IMG/VR virus record: IMGVR_UViG_2690316311_000019
Direction: 5' to 3' (one strand)
DNA: 64,000 nucleotides
From: a virus
Lineage: Duplodnaviria > Heunggongvirae > Uroviricota > Caudoviricetes
The notes under the pieces were generated by a model. The model had not been told where the DNA came from, ran no database searches, and saw only the letters and a program-made list of their open reading frames with translations. Both the position numbers and the translations under genes were made by a program. Each line of letters starts with the position of its first letter. The first letter of the stretch is position 1. Below, piece after piece: positions 31,237 to 39,757 of the stretch.

Positions 31237-32134
31237 GCACTGGAAAAACATTACTATTTATAAACTTTCTCGTGAGGCGGATCTGACCGACTTAGAAGAT
31301 AAAAAGAAAATGATCCTTTTCACGCCATGCGGTAGTCAGGATATGGCCAAGTTCGGTTTTGTATCGCCATTTGGTGATAATTCTGAAGTTATCGCTATGC
31401 ATGGAAATGGTTTTATCCTTGTTGAAGCAAAGCGCGAAACAAAAATTCTTCCCCCGCCGGTTATCCAGCGAGCTATTCAAGAAAAAATTGAAAAACTTGA
31501 GCAAGAACAAGCGCGTAAACTGAAGAAAACAGAGAAGGACTCCCTGAAAGACGAAGTTCTGCATTCTCTTCTGCCACGGGCTTTTTCAAAGTTTTCTGTT
31601 ATCCAGGCGATCTACGACGGTTCAACTAAACGTATCTATATCAATGCCAGCGCGCGGCAGGCAGAGGATATGCTCGCGCTTATGCGTAAGTCTCTGGGTT
31701 CTCTTCCTGCTGTTCCCCTGAGTGTTGAAAATCCCATTGAATTAACGCTGACCGACTGGGTACGTGATGGTAGTGCTCCACAGGGATTTCAAATGGGGGA
31801 TGCGGCAGAACTTAAGGCAGTGCTTGAGGATGGCGGTATTGCCCGAGTGAAAAAGCAGGATTTGGGAAGCGATGAAATTTCCACACACCTGGAAGCTGGC
31901 AAGCTCGTCACTAAGTTGGCACTCGACTGGCAGAACCGCATTAAATTTACACTGGACCATAACTTCAGCCTTACCAGCGTCAAATTTGCGGATGAATTGC
32001 TTGAGCAGAACTCTGATATTGATAGTGAAGATGTTGCGCAGCGACTGGACGCAGATTTCTTCCTGTTGACCAGTGAAATTTCGTGCCTGGTTGATGCTCT
32101 GGTAAATGCCCTTGGCGGAGAGGCTAAGCAGTGA
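31229..32134 (+). CDS. rdgC: Recombination-associated protein RdgC homolog
   Basis: Strong similarity to E. coli RdgC along the length ([45 protein letters not shown]); start MFKHW at 31229. Confidence 0.85.
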
Positions 32135-35100
32135 AAGAGCTGTGCTATGGATCTGTTTGCAGTGGAATTGAAGCCGCGAGTATTGCCTGGGAACCGTTGG
32201 GTATGCGTCCGGCGTGGTTTGCTGAAATCGAGCCTTTTCCATCGGCCGTTCTTGCGCTCCGCTGGCCCCATGTTGCCAACCTTGGCGACATGAAAAAACT
32301 TGCCAAAAAAGTCTTGGCTGGGGAAATCGAATCCCCTGACGTGCTCGTCGGGGGAACACCATGTTTTACCGCGGGGCATATGGTTCTTTGTAAAAATGGC
32401 TATAAACCAATAGAAAATGTTTGCCCTGGTGATTACGTAGTCAGTCATCTCGGGCGGTTACAACAAGTAAAAAGAGTTGGTTCAAAAATAGCTAATACGG
32501 GGTTACTTAATGCCGTTGGGCAGCCTTTAGGTATAAGAACAACCAATGACCATCCCTTCCTGGCTGTTCGGTGGAAAGCCCAAAACACCCGGAAAAATGG
32601 CACATATTTTAAGAGAGAGTTGTTGTCTGAACCGGAATGGCGAGCAGCATGTGATATGCCGGGATATCAATGGTGCGCTCTAACTAATTTCAATATTGCA
32701 TTTCCAGATATTTGTTCTCGGTTCTTGTCTGAAGAACAGGCTATGTATCTTGCGGGCGCTTATGTTGGCGATGGATATATTAGGAGATGGAGAGGTAAAT
32801 CTAAGAAGGCGGTTGTTTTTGGCATAAATTGCCAGAAATTGAGAAAGTTTCATTGCCGCATACCAGAAAACATATTTTCCGTGGCAAGCGAAATCCGAGG
32901 GAGCATCAAAGTAACCTTGAATGATACGTGTTATGCCAATTGGCTTAATGAACATTTTGGCGAGTTAAGCCATGCTAAGCGTATCCCTGCATGGGTGATG
33001 TCGCATCCATTGCGTCATGTGTTTTTACAAGGCTATCTTGATACTGATGGGACACCAAGTGGTAAAGCGGGATTTAGAATTAATAGTGTTAGTTCTGCGC
33101 TTGCTTGGGGCGTTGCGGGGTTGTCACAGACTTGTGGTTATGTTTCTTCGGTCAGCTTTATTGAAGTTGAGCCCAAAAAAGTGATCGAGGATCGCGTGGT
33201 AAATCAACGGAATTATTATCAGGTAACAATCTGCCCGCAGAAATTGTCACGTAAATCAAGATTGGCTCATGGAATGCTTTTACGAACAGTCAAAGAGTTT
33301 AAATCGGTAGGCCTAGATACTGTATACAACATAGAAGTCGAAGGTGATCATTCCTATATCCTCAATGGTGCGGTGGTCCATAACTGTCAGGCATTCAGTA
33401 TCGCGGGATTACGTGGTGGGCTTGATGATGAGCGTGGCGCGCTAACTTTAAAGTATGTGGAGTTTGCAAATGCAATTGACGACAAACGGGCTGAGTCATT
33501 TCTCAAACCAGCCGTTATCGTCTGGGAAAATGTCCCAGGAGTCTTGTCATCGGCAGATAACGCCTTCGGATGTTTCCTTGCCGGATTGGCTGGAGAAGAT
33601 GTGCCATTTGAACCAGGTGATCGACCTGAATCAGGAAAAAGCAACGCGTTCTGGCGGTGGGATGGCAAAACCGGTTGCCATGTTCCAAAGTGGCCGCAGT
33701 GTGGTTGTATTTATGGACCGCAGCGAAAAGTGGCCTGGAGAATCCTTGATGCCCAATACTTCGGAGTGGCACAACGACGCCGACGCGTGTTTGTTGTCGC
33801 AAGTGCTCGAACAGATCTCGATCCCGCAACGGTACTTTTTGAGTTCGAAGGCGTGCGCCGGAATATTGCGCCGAGCAGAGGCGAGGGGAAGGAAACTACC
33901 AGATATACTTCAAACATCGCTATCAGAACTTGCGATGATACAAACATAATTGCCATGGCACATGGGCAAGGAGGGGCTGAGATAAAAACCGATAATTCGG
34001 CACCAACTTTGACATGTAACCATGAAGCACCAATTGTATTGCTCGGCGACGGTAGAATGCGCCGTCTTACCCCTGTCGAATGTGAAAGGCTGCAAGGTTT
34101 TCCTGATTGGCATACGTTGATCCCTACGGAAAAGCGTAAAAAAGTTAATTCAGATGAACTGGCATATCTGCACAATCACTATCCAGATTTAAGCGAAGAA
34201 GAGGCCGCAATGCTTGCAGCTGACGGACCGCGTTACAAAGCGATCGGCAATAGTATGGCAATACCAGTAATGCGCTGGATTGGCGATCGGATTACTAAGG
34301 CCGTATGTCGGCAGAAAGAAGGAAGTGAAACAAAAGAGCGAAAAGTTAAACCAGCGGCAGAATTCGAACGGTCCATATTCAAATGGGCTGGTGGAAAATT
34401 TGGTGTTCTGGAACAAATCTTTCGCTATTTGCCAGAAGGGAAGCGCCTGATTGAACCTTTCGTTGGTGGCGGAGCTGTCTTCATGAATGCCGGATACCAG
34501 GAAAATCTGCTAAATGATGTGAATGCTGACCTGATTAACTTTTACAAGACTCTGCAACGCGAGGCGCATTCACTTATCACTCTGGCACATCGTTTCTTCC
34601 AGGACTACAACACACAGGAAGGATACCTGGCAGTACGGAATGCGTTTAACAAACAAGTCTATGATGATTTACATCGCGCAGCGGCGTTTTTGTTCCTGAA
34701 CCGACATTGTTTTAACGGATTGACGCGTTACAACCAGGCCGGTGAGTTCAATGTCGGTTATGGGAAGTATAAAACTCCGTATTTCCCATTACAGGAGATG
34801 GAAGCCTTCCTCGGTGCGGAAGGGCGGTCTGAGTTTGTATGCGGTGATTTTGCAGCGGTGATTGAAGCTGCCGGAGAAGGAGATGTCATCTTTTGCGATC
34901 CGCCGTATGAACCGCTTCCAAATACAGAGGGATTCACGAACTATTCCGGTCATGACTTTAAGTTTGAAGAGCAAAAACGCCTGGTGTCTCTGTTGACGGA
35001 TGCTCATCGTCGAGGTGCAAAGGTTCTCATTACTAACAGTGGCGCGCCAAACATCAGAGAGCTTTATCATGACAGTGGCTTCAGAGTGGAACCTCTTTTT

Positions 35101-35172
35101 GCCAGACGTTCTGTGTCTTGTAAGGGGGACACTCGAGGTGTAGCTCATGACGTTTTGGGTATATTGCTCTAA
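32131..35172 (+). CDS. dmt: Bifunctional DNA methyltransferase (C5-cytosine domain interrupted by an intein, then Dam-like N6-adenine domain)
   Basis: GTG start coupled to the rdgC stop; C5-MTase motifs (GGTP / CQAFS split by insert, [26 protein letters not shown]) then Dam motifs (KWAGGK, DPPY). Confidence 0.85.
32362..33384 (+). other. Intein with LAGLIDADG homing endonuclease domain inserted in C5-MTase motif IV
   Basis: 341-aa insert: starts CFTAGHMV, block B TTNDHPFL, two LAGLIDADG-like motifs ([19 protein letters not shown]), terminal [21 protein letters not shown] followed by +1 Cys; removal restores GGTPCQAFS. Confidence 0.85.
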
Positions 35173-35189
35173 TAAATTTATTAGTGTAA
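35163..35189 (+). promoter_or_regulatory. Overlapping pair of C1-type operator-like sites ahead of the tRNA/helicase operon
   Basis: Perfect ATTGCTCTAATAAATTT at 35163-35179 overlapping an inverted AAATTTATTAGTGTAAT; overlaps the dmt stop codon. Confidence 0.6.
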
Positions 35190-35353
35190 TATCACCTCAA
35201 TGAATCGTGATTTATAGAGCGATTTAGCTGTTAGCCGCGACAGGCGCGGCGGTAAGCATGGCTGGGCCTAGTCCTCCCAGACAAACCACCGAGTTGCCAG
35301 GTTGACCATGCGCCTAAGTGGCAACGCCGAAGTGCGTTACGAGCGTCCAGTTT

Positions 35354-35380
35354 GCCCATCTTCGGGTGGGCGTTTTTTTC
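35354..35380 (+). terminator. Rho-independent terminator/attenuator in the leader
   Basis: GCCCATC-TTCG-GGTGGGC hairpin followed by GTTTTTTTC. Confidence 0.5.
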
Positions 35381-35844
35381 AGGGTTTTCGTCATGGTTAG
35401 CGACTTTGCGGCGGTTTAGAAACTGACCATTAAAGTAAATGCAAACGATGATCTGATGATGGTAGCGGCCTAAGAAGCCAGATGCCATGGGGTATGAGTC
35501 GTCCCCCGTCAAAAAATCGACCGCAGAGTGTCCCCGTCTGTGTATTAGGGAACGGGGAGGCACAACAGGTAAGGGCGCTGGTGTGATTAACCAGATGAAC
35601 GAGAAGGGGCCATCTGTTGGTCAGCGTCCTTTCCTGTTGCGTTTTCTTTTCAGCGTAACAGCGGTGCTTAACAGCACTTTGGGTACAGTTCCACGAATTT
35701 ACGGGTATATCCCGTCATGCTGAAGGCGCTAATCACGCTGGAAGCCAGGGTTATGCATCCCCTGTTACCGAATTGCAGCCAGGGCGCGGTGCGCCGAAAA
35801 GCATACGGAGGTGGAAGCCCTCGCCGGAGACGTACCCGGCAAGT

Positions 35845-35919
35845 GATGGTGTAGCTCAGCGGTAGAGCAGTTGGCTGTTAACCAACTGGTCGGTAGTTCG
35901 AATCCACCCACCATCGCCA
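35845..35919 (+). tRNA. tRNA-Asn (GTT)
   Basis: Acceptor GATGGTG/CACCATC, D-arm GCTC/GAGC, anticodon loop CTGTTAA, T-loop TTCGAAT, encoded CCA. Confidence 0.8.
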
Positions 35920-35924
35920 CTTTA

Positions 35925-36011
35925 GGGGAGTTAGTCCGTAGGGGTAGCGGGGTAGACTGTAAATCTACTGTCATTGCGACTCGGGTGGTTCGACTCCATC
36001 ACTCCCCACCA
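35925..36011 (+). tRNA. tRNA-like element with Tyr (GTA) anticodon loop and long variable arm; non-canonical D-arm region
   Basis: Acceptor GGGGAGT/ACTCCCC, anticodon arm GTAGA-CTGTAAA-TCTAC, T-arm GGTGG-TTCGACT-CCATC, CCA; four nt instead of two between acceptor and D-stem. Confidence 0.35.
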
Positions 36012-36015
36012 CATT

Positions 36016-36091
36016 GCCGATTTAGCTCAGTTGGTAGAGCAGTCGCTTTGTAAGCGAATGGTCAGCGGTTCGATCCCGTTAATCGGCACCA
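36016..36091 (+). tRNA. tRNA-Thr (TGT)
   Basis: Acceptor GCCGATT/AATCGGC, D-arm GCTC/GAGC, anticodon loop TTTGTAA, T-loop TTCGATC, CCA. Confidence 0.8.
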
Positions 36092-36096
36092 ACATA

Positions 36097-36170
36097 ACAG
36101 GTAAGAGCATTCTCCCTTATGGGGCCTGGCTTAAATGCATCGAGTGCTCTTACCGTTGTGATGAAGTGCA
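36097..36170 (+). repeat. Structured repeat element A (long hairpin plus conserved 3' tail)
   Basis: GGTAAGAGCA...TGCTCTTACC stem followed by GTTGTGATGAAGTGC. Confidence 0.5.
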
Positions 36171-36460
36171 GATCTTAGAAGCAACCAGAAGATAAGCATC
36201 TGGCTTCACAACATAAACCGCAGGAACGACCAATAAACGGTAGTCCGTATGGAGAACACCCCGTTGAGGAAGAGGCCTGGCCGGAACCGTAACCGGCGAC
36301 TGGTAATGTGTGTAAATGGAGCGAAATATGTGGGCGTTTAACGGGATACGGGTTGTAACAGCGATTATTAACGGCGAACTTAAGTATTCACGTTTCGAGA
36401 CAAATGAACGTGATGGGAAATGTATTGGTGTGCGGTTAGTAAGAGAATACGCATAACAAC

Positions 36461-36563
36461 TACAACGTTGAGAACACTGGCGTAACGGGGTCATATCCCA
36501 ATCTACGAATAAATGTTGCGTTGCCGCGTGACAACCAGTGTTCTCAACATTGTGGTGAATGCA
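36461..36563 (+). repeat. Structured repeat element B
   Basis: 14-bp stem GTTGAGAACACTGG/CCAGTGTTCTCAAC enclosing inner hairpin CGTA-ACGGGGTCATATCCCAATC-TACG, followed by ATTGTGGTGAATGC. Confidence 0.5.
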
Positions 36564-36737
36564 CAGGCTGATGTGCCGCAACTACAGTAGTGCGCGCTTT
36601 GCGGGGCTTGCTACAACCCTGTGTCGGAGTTCAGCACCGACCATCACAGTTTGATTCTCTGGCATGAGCATAACGCTGAAATAAGTCCAGTCTGGTGCGG
36701 TCTGATCACCCGCCGTTAGCTCCACGAAACGGAGCAC

Positions 36738-36825
36738 GTAACAGGTAAGAGCATTCTCCTGTAACGGGTTCATATCCCAATCTACAGGTCCACCAAGAAT
36801 GCTCTTTCCGTTGCGGTGAATGCGG
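36738..36825 (+). repeat. Structured repeat element C
   Basis: Outer stem GGTAAGAGCATTCT/AGAATGCTCTTTCC (as element A), inner hairpin CCTGTA-ACGGGTTCATATCCCAATC-TACAGG (as element B), followed by GTTGCGGTGAATGC. Confidence 0.5.
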
Positions 36826-36964
36826 CTAAGCGCACGCGGGGAAATGGTTATATCTGTCCATTATTTCTCCTTGTTTCCACGTCCACGGTGGATAACCAGC
36901 CAAAGGACACCGGGAGGAACCCGGCACCGCAGCTTTTTTATTCGTTAAATAATGGAGTGAGAGG

Positions 36965-37201
36965 ATGCAGAACAATCCGAACAAATGTCGAACGCTATGG
37001 GTGCGGTTATATATTTATGCCGTCCTCTGTTTGATTGTGTCACTGGTTCTGTATGTTTGGCTTTTGCCAAATATGATCTCATCTAACAGCACAATACTTG
37101 TATTGTTGGGAGTCCTTCTCGCGCTCATTTACCCGGCTTTCGCAGTAGTCTTTTTTCGTGAAAAAACCAGGAAATTAATTAATGAAAAAAACGTTGATTA
37201 G
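36965..37201 (+). CDS. Small two-TM membrane protein upstream of the SPFH gene
   Basis: 78-aa hydrophobic ORF overlapping the start of the SPFH lipoprotein gene. Confidence 0.45.
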   Translation: MQNNPNKCRTLWVRLYIYAVLCLIVSLVLYVWLLPNMISSNSTILVLLGVLLALIYPAFAVVFFREKTRKLINEKNVD

Positions 37202-38009
37202 TGCAGCGATTATTTTGGGTTCTTTATGTCTGACCGGATGCGATCGGGTAGAGCCAGGTAACGTAGGGATCAAAGTAAATAAGCTGGGGGATGATAAAGG
37301 TATCGGTGAAGTAGTTGGCGTTGGTCGCTACTGGACAGGCTTGAATACTGAAGTTTATATCTTCCCGACCTTTAAGCAAATGAAGACATACGATGAGCCG
37401 TTCAGCTTCCAGATGAGCGACGGAACAACCATTGGTTACCACATCGGCGTAGCCTACAAGGTTGATCCAGCAAAAGTCACAACGGTATTTCAGACCTATC
37501 GCAAAGGTGTAGATGATATTACTGATACCGATCTACGCCAGAAGGTTGCAGATGCTCTGAACCGATTAGCCAGCAAAATGACCACCGACAAATTTATCGA
37601 CGGTGGCAAATCTGAATTGCTTGATGCAGCCCTTAAAGACATTCAGGAAGAAATGACGCCAATCGGCATTCAGGTGATGAGCCTCTCTTATGTAGGTAAG
37701 CCAGAATACCCGCCAACAGTTATTGACAGTATTAACGCCAAAGTCACGGCAAACCAAAAAACCCTGCAACGCGAGCAAGAGGTCAAACAACGTGAAGCAG
37801 AGGCCAACATGCTGCGCGCGGAAGCTGCCGGACAGGCTGATGCTATTCGCACAAAAGCCCAGGCCGAAGCTGATGCCATTCGTTTACGTGGTGAAGCTCT
37901 GCGCCAGAACCCCGGTGTTATGGACTTGGAAGCGATCAACAAATGGAACGGTACATTACCGCAGTATATGACCAGTAATACCGCTGTTCCGTTTGTTCCG
38001 GTGAAATAA
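37182..38009 (+). CDS. SPFH/band-7 (HflC/stomatin-like) lipoprotein
   Basis: Lipobox LCLTGC at the N-terminus; SPFH-like core and Ala/Glu/Gln-rich coiled-coil C-terminus. Confidence 0.7.
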   Translation: MKKTLISAAIILGSLCLTGCDRVEPGNVGIKVNKLGDDKGIGEVVGVGRYWTGLNTEVYIFPTFKQMKTYDEPFSFQMSDGTTIGYHIGVAYKVDPAKVTTVFQTYRKGVDDITDTDLRQKVADALNRLASKMTTDKFIDGGKSELLDAALKDIQEEMTPIGIQVMSLSYVGKPEYPPTVIDSINAKVTANQKTLQREQEVKQREAEANMLRAEAAGQADAIRTKAQAEADAIRLRGEALRQNPGVMDLEAINKWNGTLPQYMTSNTAVPFVPVK

Positions 38010-38036
38010 AAGCGTAAGCAAAATTGGCAGTAATCC

Positions 38037-38112
38037 GGCCCTTTAGCTCAGTGGTTAGAGCTGGCGACTCATAATCGCACGGTCACCGGTTCAAGTCCGG
38101 TAGGGGCCACCA
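38037..38112 (+). tRNA. tRNA with CAT anticodon, most similar to the lysidine-type tRNA-Ile2 (ileX-like)
   Basis: Resembles the remembered E. coli ileX sequence (GGCCC..TTAGCTCAGTGGTTAGAGC..GGCGACTCATAATCGC...GGTTCAAGTCC...GGGGCCACCA); acceptor GGCCCTT/AGGGGCC. Confidence 0.75.
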
Positions 38113-38392
38113 TATTTGGTTGTAACACGGCGTCTGGCACATGCGTCGTTAGCGGTCTGGTGACGTTAAAGGGGTAACCTTTCCCCTAGCTCAGGCAACA
38201 AACCAGGTAGCCGGAATGTGCAAGCCCCGTTCATAGCGTCGGACTGCGGATTCACCATCCTGGCGATTCGGTGTGACAACCGGGAAGAGTCCGGCGCATT
38301 AATCCTGATTTTCTGGTGATGACTCATATCGTTAGGAGTGATTTGAGTATGCCGATTATATCTGACATTCAGCACGCCTGGGTGGAGTGCTA

Positions 38393-39757
38393 ATGTCTGC
38401 ATCCCCTCTTGAATCCATGCCAAATTCCCTTAGTGCAGAACAAGCTGTACTTGGTGGCTTAATGCTTGATAACTGCCGCTGGGATGAAGTTGCAGATCGT
38501 ATAGTTGCTGATGATTTTTATACCAGTGCTCATCGTGAAATTTTCAGTGAGATGGAGAGGTTATTAAGTCATGGCAAACCGATTGATTTGATAACACTTG
38601 CTGAAGCACTTGAACAGAACGGTAAATTAGAACGCGCCGGTGGTTTTGCGTACCTTGCGGAGATGTCAAAGAACACGCCCAGCGCGGCAAATATTTGTGC
38701 TTATGCGGATATCGTTCGTGAACGCGCGGTTGTTCGTGAAATGATTTCCGTCGCAAATGAAATAGCTGAAGCTGGATATGCGCAGGATGGCAGGGGCAGC
38801 AATGAATTGCTGGATATGGCCGAGCGCCGCGTTTTTGAAATAGCTGAAAAACGACAAAAGAGCGGTAGTGGTCCAAAAGATATCGCCAGCATTCTCGATG
38901 CAACGGTATCTCGCATAGAAGAGTTGTTTCAGCGACCGCATGATGGTGTAACGGGGCTTGATACCGGATTTACCGATCTCAATAAGAAGACGGCAGGACT
39001 TCAGGCGTCCGATCTCATTATTGTCGCCGCCCGCCCATCGATGGGGAAGACTACGTTTGCGATGAATCTCGTCGAAAATGCCGCAGTCCGTAACGATAAG
39101 CCCGTATTGGTTTTTAGCCTTGAGATGCCGAGCCACCAACTGATGATGCGCTCACTGGCTTCTCTTGCACGCGTTGATCAGACTCGTATTCGAACAGGGC
39201 AACTTAACGACGAGGATTGGGCGCGGGTTTCTGGCGCAATGGGGATTCTGTTGGACAAGCAGAATATTTTTATTGATGACTCAAGCGCCCTGACACCTAC
39301 AGAGCTTCGTTCCCGCGCTCGTCGTGTTTATAAAGAAAATGGTGGTTTGAGCATGATTATGATCGACTACCTGCAACTTATGCGCGTCCCCGAGCTGCAA
39401 GATAACCGAACGCTGGAAATTGCCGAGATTTCTCGCTCACTGAAGGCTTTGGCGAAGGAATTACAAGTACCGGTGGTGGCATTGTCACAACTTAATCGAT
39501 CGCTTGAACAGCGTGCGGACAAACGACCGGTAAATTCAGATTTACGTGAATCAGGAGCAATTGAGCAGGACGCAGACCTGATCATGTTTCTGTATCGCGA
39601 CGAAGTTTATCACCCGGATAGCGAAATGAAGGGCATTGCCGAGGTAATTATCGGAAAGCAACGAAATGGCCCAATTGGCACGGTGAGATTGGCTTTTAAC
39701 GGCCAATACTCACGGTTTGATAACTATGCTGGTGCTGACTGGCAAGAGGATTATTAA
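38393..39757 (+). CDS. ban: Replicative DNA helicase, DnaB family
   Basis: DnaB-like N-terminus (AEQAVLGGLMLDN), Walker A ARPSMGKTTFAMNL, RecA-like helicase core; ATG at 38393 with GGAG RBS. Confidence 0.9.
   Translation: MSASPLESMPNSLSAEQAVLGGLMLDNCRWDEVADRIVADDFYTSAHREIFSEMERLLSHGKPIDLITLAEALEQNGKLERAGGFAYLAEMSKNTPSAANICAYADIVRERAVVREMISVANEIAEAGYAQDGRGSNELLDMAERRVFEIAEKRQKSGSGPKDIASILDATVSRIEELFQRPHDGVTGLDTGFTDLNKKTAGLQASDLIIVAARPSMGKTTFAMNLVENAAVRNDKPVLVFSLEMPSHQLMMRSLASLARVDQTRIRTGQLNDEDWARVSGAMGILLDKQNIFIDDSSALTPTELRSRARRVYKENGGLSMIMIDYLQLMRVPELQDNRTLEIAEISRSLKALAKELQVPVVALSQLNRSLEQRADKRPVNSDLRESGAIEQDADLIMFLYRDEVYHPDSEMKGIAEVIIGKQRNGPIGTVRLAFNGQYSRFDNYAGADWQEDY

What the first reader, a model, noticed from the sequence alone, without database searches (positions are those of the whole stretch)
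35564..36830. Family of repeated hairpin elements in the non-coding leader around the tRNA genes
Between the operator at 35163 and the first downstream ORF at 36965 there are about 1.5 kb without convincing ORFs. Three elements (36097-36170, 36461-36563, 36738-36825) each have a long outer stem and a conserved 3' tail GTTG(Y)G(R)TGAA(K)TGC. Elements B and C share an inner hairpin ACGGG(G/T)TCATATCCCAATC closed by stems that differ by a compensatory change (CGTA/TACG versus CCTGTA/TACAGG), which suggests a conserved RNA structure. Elements A and C share the outer stem GGTAAGAGCATTCT. Related motif copies lie upstream (AACAGGTAAGGGC at 35564, ACGGGTATATCCCGT at 35701). This looks like a small structured-RNA or processing-site family in the tRNA/helicase operon leader that I cannot assign to a known class.
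Basis: seen in the sequence. Interest (0 to 1): 0.65.

Follow-up and report, generated by a model that had tools for sequence, protein, structure and literature searches.

The report
Modular structured RNAs in phage leader
The repeated hairpins around the tRNA genes of this P1-like phage are real copies of a widespread, largely undescribed family of structured non-coding RNA modules found in the untranslated leaders of temperate-phage operons, and two of them carry a hairpin that copies the anticodon arm of the initiator tRNA.

Summary
The window is a P1-like phage, and the region is the untranslated leader of the C1-repressed ban (helicase) operon.

It holds four co-oriented modules: E0 35558-35658, A 36090-36216, B 36459-36654 and C 36734-36937. 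Each has three parts:
- a CAYAAC 5' flank;
- a 12-17 bp stem I;
- GUUGYGRUG, the 5' strand of a second domain (stem II) closed by CNYCRCAAC.

The same modules occur in more than 200 prophage and phage loci of Enterobacterales, in pL leaders, late leaders and tRNA operons. Compensatory changes support them: 11 of 12 stem I pairs, 95.9% of cells paired against 36-51% in slid controls, and G.U far more frequent than A.C, which points to + strand RNA.

The P1 ORFs plp and upl that overlie them are not conserved.

Stem II of C is a sub-threshold match to the Rfam sRNA STnc100. The short stem II type is the N-leader hairpin of P22-like phages, positionally equivalent to the lambda N-leader hairpin.

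The inner hairpin of B and C belongs to a widespread motif, GGG-NUCAUNN-CCC. Its commonest form equals 14 nt of the E. coli initiator tRNA anticodon arm.

Function is not established. My best guess (about 0.45) is that they are processed, stable small RNAs. The rivals are put/nut-like elongation control and attenuation.

The parts
35558..35658 (+). Module E0. It has the 5' flank GGCACAAC and a 16-bp stem I (35567-35582 / 35620-35635). The tail GUUGCG pairs with the flank and is followed by UUUUCUUUUC, so the whole looks like an intrinsic terminator. There is no stem II.
   Evidence: D5; MFE -44.8, z -4.5; R1, 12.4 bits. Also present in P1 and P7.
35845..36091 (+). tRNA-Asn, tRNA-Tyr and tRNA-Thr. 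Module A begins directly after the 3' end of tRNA-Thr.
36090..36216 (+). Module A. Flank CAUAAC; stem I 36100-36113 / 36141-36154. Stem II is 36155-36212, the short three-way-junction type: GUUGUGAUG-AAGUGCAG ... CAACCAGAAGAUAAGC ... CUUCACAAC.
   Evidence: R1, 89 bits, E 9e-17. The same module is found in Sasha, MK54 and IMG/VR loci.
36215..36297 (+). Conserved non-coding spacer, also present in the pL leader of Citrobacter phage phiNP.
   Evidence: (H69, 89% identity).
36298..36458 (+). 161-nt insertion relative to P1, carrying a 42-aa ORF (36328-36456). It is not part of the RNA modules, but it breaks the frame of the P1 'plp' ORF.
   Evidence: phrog_8025.
36459..36654 (+). Module B. The basal helix is 36459-36480 / 36535-36556. 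The inner hairpin resembling an initiator-tRNA anticodon arm is 36481-36507 (GGG-GUCAUAU-CCC). Stem II runs from 36549-36557 (AUUGUGGUG) to 36642-36650 (CAUCACAGU).
   Evidence: (I1, D1).
36661..36743 (+). Conserved spacer with the hairpin GCUCCACGAAACGGAGC, just 5' of module C. It is shared with the late-operon leader of Klebsiella phages.
   Evidence: (H58-H67). A 1-nt indel relative to the Klebsiella copy breaks the 'upl' frame.
36734..36937 (+). Module C. Flank CGUAAC; stem I 36744-36757 / 36796-36809. The inner hairpin resembling an initiator-tRNA anticodon arm is 36758-36788 (GGG-UUCAUAU-CCC). Stem II is 36810-36933 (GUUGCGGUG ... CACCGCAGC) and resembles STnc100. It is followed by UUUUUUAUU.
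   Evidence: STnc100, 38 bits against a gathering score of 47, E 1e-6; R1, 33.7 bits.
35287..35380 (+). Context only: the DicF-like region of the same leader, with an intrinsic terminator at 35350-35380.
   Evidence: (P1 annotation).
36150..36773 (-). Minus-strand ORFs equivalent to the P1 annotations plp and upl. I judge them spurious.

Best explanation
**What it is (confidence about 0.9).** The window holds four tandem, co-oriented copies of a modular, non-coding RNA element. They are transcribed on the + strand as part of the roughly 3.2-kb leader of the C1-controlled ban operon.

Each module has these parts:
- a basal helix of about 20-22 bp, made of the CAYAAC flank, stem I and the GUUGYG tail;
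- a variable apical domain on that helix. In B and C this is a hairpin that copies the initiator-tRNA anticodon arm, with three G:C pairs and the loop N-U-CAU-N-N;
- in A, B and C, a second domain (stem II) closed by GUUGYGRUG/CNYCRCAAC. Stem II encloses either a conserved small three-way junction (A) or larger inserts (B, and C which is STnc100-like).

The modules are cassettes that temperate phages of Enterobacterales exchange among pL leaders, late-operon leaders and phage tRNA operons.

**How it most likely works (confidence about 0.45, inferred).** The modules are processing cassettes. The long basal helices are of RNase III substrate length. Together with the abutting tRNAs, which are cut by RNase P and by 3' trimming, they define cleavage points. 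Those cuts would separate the tRNAs from the rest of the leader and release the module domains as discrete, stable, highly structured small RNAs. That is the form in which the only studied relatives, STnc100 and PasD, accumulate.

The released RNAs would then act through their conserved unpaired nucleotides. These are GAAUKGC and AAGAUAAGC in stem II and the CAU 'anticodon' loop in B and C. They would bind a host component. For the anticodon-arm mimic, the candidates are the 30S P site with IF3, MetRS, or an anticodon-arm nuclease.

**Shown:** the sequence family, its structure, the strand, the genomic contexts and the non-coding status.

**Inferred:** the cleavage, the stability of the products and the binding partner.
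For: **Family and structure**
- Motif scans and a covariance model recover the module in more than 200 loci.
- Covariation supports stem I, helix P2a and the stem II closing helix.
- The flank-tail pairing is 96% paired. It covaries in the prophage 'type-2' modules, AAAACAG/CUGUUUU against CAACAC/GUGUUG.
- G.U pairs number 51 against 8 A.C pairs, which places the function on the + strand.

**Not protein-coding:**

**Processing and small-RNA reading**
- The Rfam STnc100 model (positions 1-206) aligns in phiES15 from the 3' arm of stem I, through stem II, to the terminator. The annotated sRNA therefore begins inside the basal helix.
- STnc100 copies are expressed, poorly ribosome-covered and verified by Northern blot in EHEC (PMC5331693). 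STnc100 and PasD are described as prophage sRNAs of common origin (bioRxiv 10.64898/2026.05.13.724894).
- 23 of 102 unique modules have a tRNA within 400 nt, always on the same strand and often only 3-9 nt away.
- Klebsiella phage MK54 has an autonomous unit of promoter-like site, leader, module and two tRNAs, placed antisense to the tail genes.
- The short stem II is the hairpin directly upstream of N-like genes in P22-like phages. It has the same flanks as the lambda N-leader hairpin. From my own knowledge, that lambda hairpin is an RNase III site.
- An HK022-type putL lies 1.5 kb upstream of a module in the same operon in L038. The module is therefore not simply the antiterminator there.

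**Anticodon-arm mimic**
- The commonest form, CGGGCUCAUAACCC, is identical to E. coli metZ over 14 nt.
- UCAU is invariant in 22 of 22 instances that were not selected through the motif.
- The flanking helix covaries.
Against: - No RNA ends, cleavage sites or RNA abundances are available for P1. Processing is inferred from helix length, from context and from relatives.
- RNase III needs no conserved sequence. Yet the stem I core AAGAGCA/UGCUCUU, the junction CC|GUUGUGGUGAAU and the stem II loops are all conserved, so something more specific must recognise them.
- In lysogens Pban is repressed. P1 module RNAs would therefore appear only after induction, unlike the STnc100 copies of EHEC lysogens.
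- A 13-nt deletion removes the anticodon-like hairpin of module C in the closest relative, Ro157c2YLVW. That hairpin is therefore dispensable, at least there.
- In the window copies the loops are GUCAUAU and UUCAUAU, matching the tRNA arm at 12 of 14 positions rather than 14 of 14.
- Most prophage modules are followed by an intrinsic terminator and sit where nutL or putL would be. That fits an elongation-control role at least as well.
- Many of the loci are closely related to one another, so the counts are not independent events.
Confidence: 0.45

Rival explanations
1. The modules are cis-acting controllers of transcript elongation that work without an N protein, as functional analogues of HK022 put, of nut, or of the rrn boxA-boxC leader. 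The nascent two-domain RNA would modify, or stay bound to, the transcribing RNA polymerase. That would let it pass the intrinsic and Rho-dependent terminators of a long untranslated leader.
For: - In lambdoid prophages the module lies downstream of the CI repressor gene, co-oriented with it, at the very start of the early-left operon (RdgC, ExoX, DUF2303). This is where nutL or putL sits.
- An intrinsic terminator follows within 150 nt in 26 of 47 unique modules, against 22 of 243 control stretches. Most of the modules scored as lacking one have terminators with large loops.
- The two classes are complementary. Phages with an N gene have boxA-boxB, then the short stem II, then N: 22 of 24 have a Shine-Dalgarno plus ATG right after. 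Modules with stem I have no N: 2 of 60.
- The 3' arm of stem I reads UGCUCUUAC in A (lambda nutR boxA is GCUCUUAC) and UGCUCUUUC in C (rrn boxA is UGCUCUUU).
- That arm is followed at once by a GU-rich 5' strand of a long-range helix, which resembles boxC and the leader-trailer helix (PMC10250234).
- The P1 leader itself contains terminators, at 35350-35380 and at E0.
- No sigma-70-like promoter is found between Pban and ban.
Against: - There is no sequence or model similarity to HK022 putL or putR.
- The boxA consensus GYTCTTTAANA is matched at only 7-8 of 11 positions. The motif lies inside a stable helix, and it is replaced in B, L054 and phiES15.
- No second copy is found in the pR operons of the same loci.
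- In L038 a genuine putL lies upstream of a module in the same operon.
- Modules also occur just upstream of tRNAs with no terminator in between.
- No N-like partner is known in P1.
Confidence: 0.25
2. The modules are conditional terminators or attenuators. The 5' flank (CAYAAC), the tail (GUUGYG) and the downstream closing strand (CRCAAC) form two mutually exclusive helices. The choice between the extended stem I and stem II would set pausing or termination and so dose the tRNAs and ban.
For: - The three mutually complementary segments are conserved. MFE folds switch between the two pairings from one copy to another.
- Where the tail changes, both partners change with it. In C the tail is GUUGCG, the flank is CGUAAC and the closing strand is CACCGCA. 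In P7 the tail of C' is AUUGCGGUG and the closing strand is CACCGCAAU.
- E0 and the prophage type-2 modules are long hairpins followed by U-rich tracts, which is terminator architecture.
- In this window stem II of C is followed by UUUUUUAUU.
Against: - A and B have no U tract after either helix.
- The U run after C is absent in P1.
- The simple terminator scan finds none of the modules.
- The model does not explain the conserved interior of stem II or the anticodon-like hairpin.
Confidence: 0.12
3. The region is protein-coding on the minus strand (Plp and Upl, as annotated in P1), and the apparent hairpins are incidental.
For: - P1 annotates plp and upl here.
- The window has open minus-strand frames of 143 aa and 63 aa.
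- The Upl-like ORF matches two PHROG families.
Against: - The 161-nt insertion, which is not a multiple of 3, gives the window ORF a different C-terminal half from P1 Plp.
- P1 plp overlaps trnT by 30 nt on the opposite strand.
- The Plp-like ORF has no PHROG match.
- A 13-nt deletion removes the upl start codon in Ro157c2YLVW.
- A 1-nt indel breaks the frame in the Klebsiella phage homologue.
- P7 and RefSeq (PGAP) leave the region unannotated.
- Substitutions are compensatory in + strand helices, with a G.U bias.
- CRISPRi knock-down of plp and upl gives no phenotype (PMC10695390), which is uninformative either way.
- The PHROG matches merely reflect propagated annotation of nearly identical P1-like genomes.
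Confidence: 0.03
4. The elements act at the DNA level, as recombination hot spots that mark mosaic boundaries, as single-strand hairpins for replication or priming, or as a MITE-like mobile repeat.
For: - Stem I and stem II cassettes are swapped independently among P1, P7, D6 and the window.
- Pieces of 50-100 nt are shared at 82-92% identity with otherwise unrelated phages.
- The operon encodes a DnaB-like helicase.
Against: - G.U pairs outnumber A.C pairs 51 to 8 in the helices, so pairing is selected on one strand as RNA.
- Orientation always follows the local transcription unit and the neighbouring tRNAs: 23 of 23 are on the same strand.
- No terminal repeats or target duplications were seen.
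- Relatives accumulate as RNAs (PMC5331693).
Confidence: 0.05

Closest known systems
STnc100 (Rfam RF02076) and PasD prophage small RNAs
   Same: - Stem II of module C has the same outer helix (UGCGGUG...CACCGCA), the GAAU that follows it, the CACCGGGAGGNACCCGG hairpin and a U-rich 3' end.
- The Rfam match is E 1e-6.
- The P7 and phiES15 copies score 43 and 40.6 bits.
- STnc100 is likewise found in untranslated stretches of prophage operons.
   Different: - All copies here score below the gathering threshold of 47 bits.
- The Rfam model starts inside the 3' arm of stem I. It therefore lacks the flank, stem I and the apical hairpin.
- Modules A and B share only the closing helix and GAAUKGC with STnc100.
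- The function of STnc100 is itself unknown (PMC12370729).
Lambda N-leader hairpin (boxC / RNase III site) and nutL region
   Same: - The short stem II lies directly upstream of N-like genes in P22-like phages.
- Its flanks are the same as in lambda, GCUUUGG-[GU-rich strand]...[CA-rich strand]-ACCAAAG, then a Shine-Dalgarno sequence and ATG.
- boxA and boxB lie just upstream in those phages.
   Different: - The interior of the lambda hairpin is unrelated.
- In P1 and in the class-1 prophage modules there is no N gene and no boxB. Stem I stands where boxA and boxB would be.
- RNase III cleavage of the lambda hairpin is from my own knowledge and was not tested here.
HK022 put RNA (putL, putR)
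   Same: - Both are two adjacent stem-loops.
- Both are transcribed near the start of the early operon of lambdoid phages that lack N.
- Both lie upstream of terminators and have a conserved junction between the two stems (PMC9378689).
   Different: - There is no detectable sequence or covariance-model similarity.
- The modules are two to three times longer, with variable inserts.
- Only one location per prophage was found.
- A module coexists with a true putL in L038.
rrn operon leader (boxB-boxA-boxC and the leader-trailer helix)
   Same: - The order of features matches: a hairpin, then a UGCUCUU(U) motif, then a GU-rich 5' strand of a long-range helix that encloses a structured RNA.
- The transcript is untranslated and contains tRNAs (PMC10250234).
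   Different: - The boxA-like motif is base-paired and matches the consensus at only 7-8 of 11 positions.
- The spacing to the GU-rich strand is 0-2 nt, not 18-19 nt.
- The enclosed RNA is 40-110 nt.
Initiator tRNA (tRNA-fMet) anticodon stem-loop, and mRNA operators that mimic tRNA arms (for example the thrS operator)
   Same: - The inner hairpin has three consecutive G:C pairs closing a 7-nt loop with U33 and CAU.
- The commonest family member is identical to E. coli metZ over CGGGCUCAUAACCC.
   Different: - It is only the arm, not a tRNA. Neither ARAGORN nor the Rfam tRNA model detects it.
- The next two stem pairs are replaced by an AC/AAUC internal loop and an unrelated covarying helix.
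- The window copies differ at loop positions 32 and 38.
- No binding partner is known.
Small stable RNAs co-transcribed with phage tRNAs (T4 rnaC and rnaD; GOLLD and ROOL RNAs next to prophage tRNAs)
   Same: They are structured non-coding RNAs of unknown function that abut phage tRNA genes and are co-oriented with them. This comparison rests on my own knowledge.
   Different: There is no sequence or Rfam similarity. These modules are much smaller than GOLLD or ROOL.

Membership tests
Rfam STnc100 (RF02076) | Covariance-model score at or above the gathering threshold of 47 bits | tested here: not met
   Module C scores 38 bits over model positions 31-147. P7 C' scores 43 bits and phiES15 40.6 bits. 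A and B give no hit.
Rfam STnc100 (RF02076) | Outer helix NUGGUG...CACCAN closing a multi-hairpin domain, with GAAU after the 5' strand | tested here: met
   The alignment shows this for C. A and B have the same closing-helix and GAAU logic but different interiors.
Rfam STnc100 (RF02076) | Accumulates as a discrete Hfq-associated small RNA | not testable with these tools
   Known only for the relatives (PMC5331693; bioRxiv 10.64898/2026.05.13.724894).
HK022 put antiterminator RNA | Sequence and structure similarity to putL or putR | tested here: not met
   blastn-short of the leader against the HK022 immunity region gives nothing. Model R1 has no hit in HK022. putL and putR queries hit only L038, at a site distinct from its module.
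HK022 put antiterminator RNA | Two adjacent stem-loops just downstream of an early promoter, upstream of terminators, in a phage without N | tested here: inconclusive
   Met for the lambdoid prophage homologues. In P1 the modules lie 400-1750 nt downstream of Pban, and one terminator precedes them.
HK022 put antiterminator RNA | Read-through that depends on the beta' zinc-binding domain | not testable with these tools
   Needs genetics or in vitro transcription.
nut site (boxA-boxB) / Nus-factor boxA | Single-stranded boxA matching GYTCTTTAANA (PMC5725501) | tested here: not met
   By hand comparison, A is GCTCTTACCGT (7 of 11) and C is GCTCTTTCCGT (8 of 11), and B is poorer. All are base-paired in stem I. 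None of 60 class-1 modules has an exact match.
nut site (boxA-boxB) / Nus-factor boxA | boxB hairpin and a cognate N protein | tested here: not met
   No boxB-like pentaloop hairpin and no N-like ORF follow the modules. boxA, boxB and N are present in the class-2 phages.
RNase III processing site | Roughly two helical turns (20 bp or more) of mostly uninterrupted double-stranded RNA | tested here: met
   Flank plus stem I is 20-22 bp in A, B, C and E0. It is 23-25 bp in the prophage type-2 modules.
RNase III processing site | Staggered cleavage that depends on rnc | not testable with these tools
   No RNA-end data exist for P1-like phages in the searchable literature.
Intrinsic terminator | GC-rich hairpin immediately followed by a U tract | tested here: inconclusive
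   E0 (with the flank-tail extension) and stem II of C in this window fit by eye. The consensus scan, which allows loops up to 8 nt, reports none of them. A and B have no U tract.
tRNA or tRNA-like gene | Cloverleaf detected by ARAGORN or the Rfam tRNA model | tested here: not met
   Only the four genuine tRNAs are detected in the window. No module is called.
Mimic of the initiator tRNA anticodon arm | Three consecutive G:C pairs closing a 7-nt loop with U33 and anticodon CAU | tested here: met
   B is GGG-GUCAUAU-CCC and C is GGG-UUCAUAU-CCC. The commonest family form is identical to metZ over 14 nt. UCAU is invariant in 22 of 22 unselected copies.
Protein-coding genes plp / upl (P1 annotation) | Reading frame and protein sequence conserved among relatives | tested here: not met
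   Frame-shifting 161-nt insertion, 13-nt deletion and 1-nt indel. Not annotated in P7 or by PGAP. There was too little substitution among P1-likes for a codon-position test.

The most novel reading that the evidence does not exclude
The inner hairpin of modules B and C, and its more than 120 relatives in prophage early and late leaders, is a functional mimic of the initiator-tRNA anticodon arm. A few copies with perfect covarying flanking helices occur in Acidobacteria, Planctomycetes, Deltaproteobacteria and Saccharibacteria. Phages would deploy this mimic in one of two ways. It could be a decoy or inhibitor for defence nucleases that cut anticodon arms, such as the VapC-type toxins known to cleave tRNA-fMet or the OLD-type enzymes that remove anticodon arms. 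Alternatively it could engage the 30S P site with IF3, or MetRS. The surrounding two-domain module would be the delivery and processing scaffold. It may also double as an N-independent antitermination signal.
Probability: 0.2. Interest if true: 0.9.

Novelty: new variant of a known kind. Interest (0 to 1): 0.68.

Why it matters
- **Annotation of a model phage.** P1 is a textbook phage, yet about 0.8 kb of its genome is annotated as two hypothetical proteins (Plp and Upl). That stretch is better explained as conserved structured RNA.
- **A shared set of RNA parts.** The same modules recur in the untranslated leaders of the operons that lambdoid phages control by antitermination, and next to phage tRNA genes. 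They link the lambda N-leader hairpin, the orphan sRNA families STnc100 and PasD of pathogenic E. coli and Salmonella, and the P1 tRNA cluster into one exchangeable toolkit.
- **If they control elongation,** they would be a second, much more widespread class of protein-independent antiterminator RNAs after put.
- **If the anticodon-arm hairpin is a true mimic,** it would be a new kind of phage counter-measure, or translation hijack, aimed at the initiator tRNA. This bears on the current question of why phages carry tRNA genes.
- **Testability.** All of this can be tested directly with standard P1 genetics.

Tried and rejected
- **Rfam scans.** I scanned the leader, the modules and 19 related loci. 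Only tRNAs, a sub-threshold STnc100 match and spurious microRNA-hairpin hits came up.
- **Homology to HK022 put.** Rejected. blastn-short and model R1 find nothing. The one putL-like hit, in L038, is a separate element.
- **Membership in boxA.** Rejected as membership. I keep it only as a resemblance.
- **King et al. 2011 on put-like RNAs.** The paper could not be read because it is not held.
- **Codon-position or dN/dS test of plp and upl.** Attempted, but P1-like sequences differ at too few sites. The coding argument therefore rests on indels and annotation.
- **First strict terminator count.** It under-called terminators with large loops, so I redid it with looser rules. The sequences are related, so its P value is only indicative.
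- **Experimental data in E. coli K-12.** None could be used. In E. coli the short-type module is almost confined to P1-like plasmids.
- **Literature searches.** Searches for P1 transcriptomics or for an initiator-tRNA arm mimic in prophages found nothing relevant.
- **The 15-mer tail motif as a probe.** Used alone it gave many chance hits in IMG/VR. The 17-base inner motif likewise gave many chance hits in the 596-Gb genome collection. Both sets had to be filtered by flanking helices.
- **PHROG matches of the Upl-like ORF.** Discounted, because they reflect propagated annotation.
- **T-arm-like hairpins.** They occur in some stem I loops (P1 version of A: GGGTTCGAATCCC). I noted them but did not pursue them.

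Full report
**Where we are.** The window is a P1-like phage. Over 35150-36970 it is 99.3% identical to Escherichia phage vB_EcoM-Ro157c2YLVW and about 95% identical to P1.

By homology with the P1 annotation, the finding lies in the leader of the C1-repressed ban operon. The order of features is:
- the operator/promoter Pban at about 35163-35192;
- a DicF-like region with an intrinsic terminator at 35350-35380;
- tRNA-Asn, tRNA-Tyr and tRNA-Thr at 35845-36091;
- the repeated elements;
- two small membrane/lipoprotein genes;
- a CAU tRNA at 38037;
- ban at 38387.

No sigma-70-like promoter is found anywhere between 35100 and 38450, against 3.6 expected. The roughly 3.2 kb therefore look like one transcription unit, and its first 1.1-1.8 kb are untranslated.

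Each is a module with three parts:
- a 5' flank CAYAAC(A);
- a stem I of 12-17 bp;
- a tail, GUUGYGRUG.

The tail is not a free 3' end. It is the 5' strand of a second domain, stem II. Stem II closes on CUUCACAAC (36204-36212) in A, on CAUCACAGU (36642-36650) in B and on CACCGCAGC (36925-36933) in C.

The tail is also complementary to the 5' flank. The flank, stem I and the tail can therefore form one basal helix of 20-22 bp. This pairing and the stem II closing helix exclude each other.

The 'related motif' at 35564 is a complete fourth module, E0 (35558-35658). Its tail is followed by UUUUCUUUUC, which gives terminator architecture.

The modules fold far better than shuffled sequence, with z from -3.7 to -5.2. 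They occur nowhere else in the 64 kb.

**The elements belong to a large family.** Pieces of 50-140 nt of this leader match unannotated intergenic DNA of unrelated temperate phages at 82-92% identity.

Reading those places showed whole modules. They include:
- Salmonella phage Sasha, between the head and tail genes;
- Klebsiella phage ST147-VIM1phi7.2, between a tRNA-Gly and the holin gene;
- Cronobacter phage phiES15, Shigella phage SfV and Citrobacter phage phiNP, between the repressor gene and the early-left genes;
- Klebsiella phage MK54, in a promoter-leader-module-tRNA-tRNA unit that runs antisense to the tail genes.

Three motif scans of IMG/VR each reached the 120-locus limit. After chance hits were filtered out by their lack of a stem I, I built a covariance model, R1, from 35 collapsed modules. 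It scored 96 matches in 100 loci.

Genomes that carry the inner motif together with a proper flanking helix are mainly Enterobacterales. They include Escherichia, Citrobacter, Enterobacter, Kosakonia, Atlantibacter, Mixta, Yersinia, Raoultella and others.

**Structure is under selection, as RNA on the + strand.**
- On alignment A2, 95.9% of cells form standard pairs, against 36-51% when the 3' partners are slid by 1-3 columns.
- 14 of 28 pairs show changes on both sides, and 0 of 500 shuffles reach any of the observed measures.
- Stem I has 11 of 12 pairs with double changes, for example GGUAAGAGCAUU/AGUGCUCUUACC, UGGAAGCGCACUCC/GGAGUGCGCUUCCA and GGGAGUUCCCCUC/UAGGGGAACUUCC.
- The small helix P2a inside stem II covaries at 2 of 3 pairs.
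- A scan that did not fix the closing helix shows that helix covarying widely: GUUGUGGUG/CGCCACAAC, GGUGAUGUG/CGCAUCACC, GAUGCGAUG/CAUCGCAUC and GAUGGCGUG/CGCGCCAUC.
- G.U pairs outnumber A.C pairs 51 to 8, so the selected strand is the transcribed + strand.
- Among P1-like phages the modules behave as cassettes. P1, D6 and SJ46 carry a different stem I in module A, with two compensatory double substitutions and a swapped loop. P7 and D6 carry different stem II and stem I cassettes in B and C, and a tRNA-Ser(UGA) between them.

One caveat applies throughout. Many loci are close relatives, and my stem finder selects for pairing. The counts therefore overstate the number of independent events. 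The anchoring of both arms to conserved flanks and the slid controls argue that the signal is nevertheless real.

**The region is not protein-coding.** P1 annotates plp and upl on the minus strand across modules A to C. The evidence against them is as follows.
- The window has a 161-nt insertion inside 'plp', so the two versions share only their N-terminal part.
- P1 plp overlaps trnT by 30 nt.
- A 13-nt deletion in Ro157c2YLVW removes the upl start codon.
- The Klebsiella phage homologue of the upl region has a 1-nt indel.
- P7 and the RefSeq annotation of hundreds of P1-like plasmids leave the region empty.
- The Plp-like ORF has no PHROG match. The Upl matches reflect propagated annotation.

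**Relation to known elements.**

*STnc100.* Stem II of C matches Rfam STnc100 at 38 bits, below the threshold of 47 (E about 1e-6). In phiES15 the whole 206-position model aligns from the 3' arm of stem I to a terminator. The described sRNA therefore corresponds to the second half of a module.

STnc100 has 11 expressed copies in E. coli O157:H7 EDL933, one of them confirmed by Northern blot (PMC5331693). One copy sits 75 nt downstream of stx2 (PMC12370729). STnc100 is considered related to the Hfq-associated sRNA PasD (bioRxiv 10.64898/2026.05.13.724894). Its function is unknown.

*The N-leader hairpin.* The short stem II of module A is also found alone in P22-like phages. There it lies between a canonical nutL (boxA plus a P22- or lambda-type boxB) and the Shine-Dalgarno sequence of the N-like gene. 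In 22 of 24 cases a Shine-Dalgarno sequence and ATG follow. The epsilon34 gene is an N homologue (PMC2629481).

Its flanks, GCUUUGG...ACCAAAG, and its position equal those of the lambda N-leader hairpin, whose 5' strand is boxC. From my own knowledge, that lambda hairpin is an RNase III site.

Modules that have a stem I are almost never followed by an N-like gene: 2 of 60.

*put.* HK022 put RNAs show no similarity. One prophage, L038, has a true putL 1.5 kb upstream of a module.

*boxA.* The 3' arm of stem I resembles boxA: UGCUCUUAC in A and UGCUCUUUC in C. However, it matches the consensus GYTCTTTAANA (PMC5725501) at only 7-8 of 11 positions, it is base-paired, and it is replaced in some members.

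The order of features does parallel the rrn leader (PMC10250234). That order is a hairpin, then a boxA-like motif, then a GU-rich strand of a long-range helix.

In lambdoid prophages the typical leader has this order:
- pL;
- module 1 (stem I plus stem II);
- an intrinsic terminator;
- module 2, a 23-25-bp basal helix capped by this hairpin;
- the first gene, which may be RdgC, DUF2303, an HD phosphatase or phrog_204.

In one Raoultella case the motif lies upstream of a holin gene.

The motif has the form [helix]-AC-GGG-NUCAUNN-CCC-AAUC-[helix], and the flanking helix covaries.

Its commonest form, CGGGCUCAUAACCC, is identical over 14 nt to the anticodon stem-loop of the E. coli initiator tRNA. 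It has three consecutive G:C pairs, U33 and the anticodon CAU. Those three G:C pairs are, from my own knowledge, the hallmark of initiator tRNAs (see also PMC2528185).

In loci that were not retrieved through this motif, the loop is N-UCAU-NN in 22 of 22 copies.

A few copies with perfect 7-14-bp flanking helices occur in Acidobacteria, Deltaproteobacteria, Planctomycetes and Saccharibacteria. That is more than the roughly 0.1 expected among the chance hits.

No Rfam family matches it and no paper was found.

The window copies have the loops GUCAUAU and UUCAUAU. The hairpin of C is deleted in Ro157c2YLVW, so it is not indispensable.

**What it does.** Nothing here measures function. The constraints are these.
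- The modules are + strand RNAs in untranslated stretches of long operons.
- Their basal helices are of RNase III length.
- 23 of 102 unique modules have a tRNA within 400 nt. The tRNA is always co-oriented, and in about two-thirds of them it is only 3-9 nt away.
- An intrinsic terminator usually follows the prophage copies: 26 of 47 against 22 of 243 controls.
- Their only studied relatives accumulate as discrete small RNAs.

I therefore favour, at about 0.45, the reading that they are processing cassettes. In this reading, cuts in the basal helix and at the tRNA borders separate the tRNAs. The same cuts release stable structured RNAs that act through their conserved loops.

The main rival, at about 0.25, is N-independent control of elongation in the manner of put, nut or the rrn leader. 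It is favoured by the nutL-like position, the downstream terminators and the complementary distribution with N. It is weakened by the co-occurrence with putL, by the paired boxA-like motif and by the absence of a copy in the pR operons.

A flank/tail/closing-strand switch acting as an attenuator stands at about 0.12. DNA-level roles (0.05) and coding (0.03) are minor.

The elements are members of a widespread family of modular phage leader RNAs. That family has been described only in fragments, as STnc100/PasD and as the N-leader hairpin. It includes a conserved look-alike of the initiator-tRNA anticodon arm.

I rate this as a new variant of a known kind (structured phage leader RNAs and small RNAs), with interest 0.68.

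Noticed in passing
window 32131-35172 (+): The dmt methyltransferase gene is 1013 aa here against 754 aa in P1. It contains an intein-like insert (Pfam Hint_2 at aa 77-126 and LAGLIDADG_3 at aa 298-361). The insert sits in the C5-cytosine methylase domain at ...GGTP|C...VVHN|CQAFS, which is the catalytic PCQ motif.
   Followed up: partly
window 35925-36011 (+): An extra tRNA-Tyr(GUA) lies between tRNA-Asn and tRNA-Thr. P1, P7, D6 and SJ46 lack it. P7 and D6 instead have a tRNA-Ser(UGA) between modules B and C, which Rfam scores as tRNA-Sec-like at 46.6 bits.
   Followed up: partly
window 36298-36458 (+): A 161-nt insertion relative to P1 carries a 42-aa ORF (36328-36456, GGAG 7 nt upstream). 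The ORF matches phrog_8025, of unknown function.
   Followed up: partly
window 36900-36933: Two E. coli chromosomes have annotated CRISPR features that match this stretch at 97% over 34 nt. The stretch is the 3' part of the STnc100-like domain of module C. Host spacers therefore appear to target this non-coding element (H195 and H196).
   Followed up: no
window 35287-35380 (+): The leader starts with a DicF-like region that ends in a strong intrinsic terminator (35350-35380). Transcripts from Pban must read through it to reach the tRNAs and ban.
   Followed up: no
window 35395-35445 (+) and L224 1850-1900: The segment GCGACUUUGCGG..UUUAGAAACUGACCA..AAAGUAAAUGCAAACGA is shared with the leader of the tRNA operon of Klebsiella phage MK54, upstream of its module. 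It is another exchangeable leader piece.
   Followed up: no
window 35474-35485 and 36196-36207: A perfect 12-nt complementarity (GAAGCCAGAUGC / GCAUCUGGCUUC) links the region upstream of E0 with the 3' side of stem II of module A, 710 nt away. About 0.1 such pairs are expected by chance, so a long-range pairing is possible (I5).
   Followed up: no
window 35100-38450: No sigma-70-like promoter match occurs on either strand, against 3.6 +/- 1.5 expected from shuffles. Promoter-like sequences appear to be depleted across the whole ban leader.
   Followed up: no
window 36965-38009 (+): Where P1 has tciA, tciB and tciC, this phage has a 78-aa membrane protein (phrog_1130) and a 275-aa lipoprotein (phrog_200).
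   Followed up: no
L352, L391, L438 (Saccharibacteria MAGs): The hairpin resembling the initiator-tRNA anticodon arm, with a perfect 7-bp flanking helix, lies in a structured leader that ends in a terminator-like hairpin. It sits just upstream of an aspartyl-tRNA synthetase gene. No Rfam family, T-box included, matches.
   Followed up: partly
L038 5079-5145 and 3466-3587 (both minus strand): This prophage has a 97%-identical copy of HK022 putL 1.5 kb upstream of a class-1 module plus terminator, in the same transcription direction.
   Followed up: no
L001 3357-3445 (P1), also in D6 and SJ46: The P1 version of module A has in its stem I loop a perfect tRNA T-arm look-alike, GAGGGTTCGAATCCCTAC. 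Several prophage stem I loops (the L010 type) contain GGTTCGATTCC-like hairpins.
   Followed up: no
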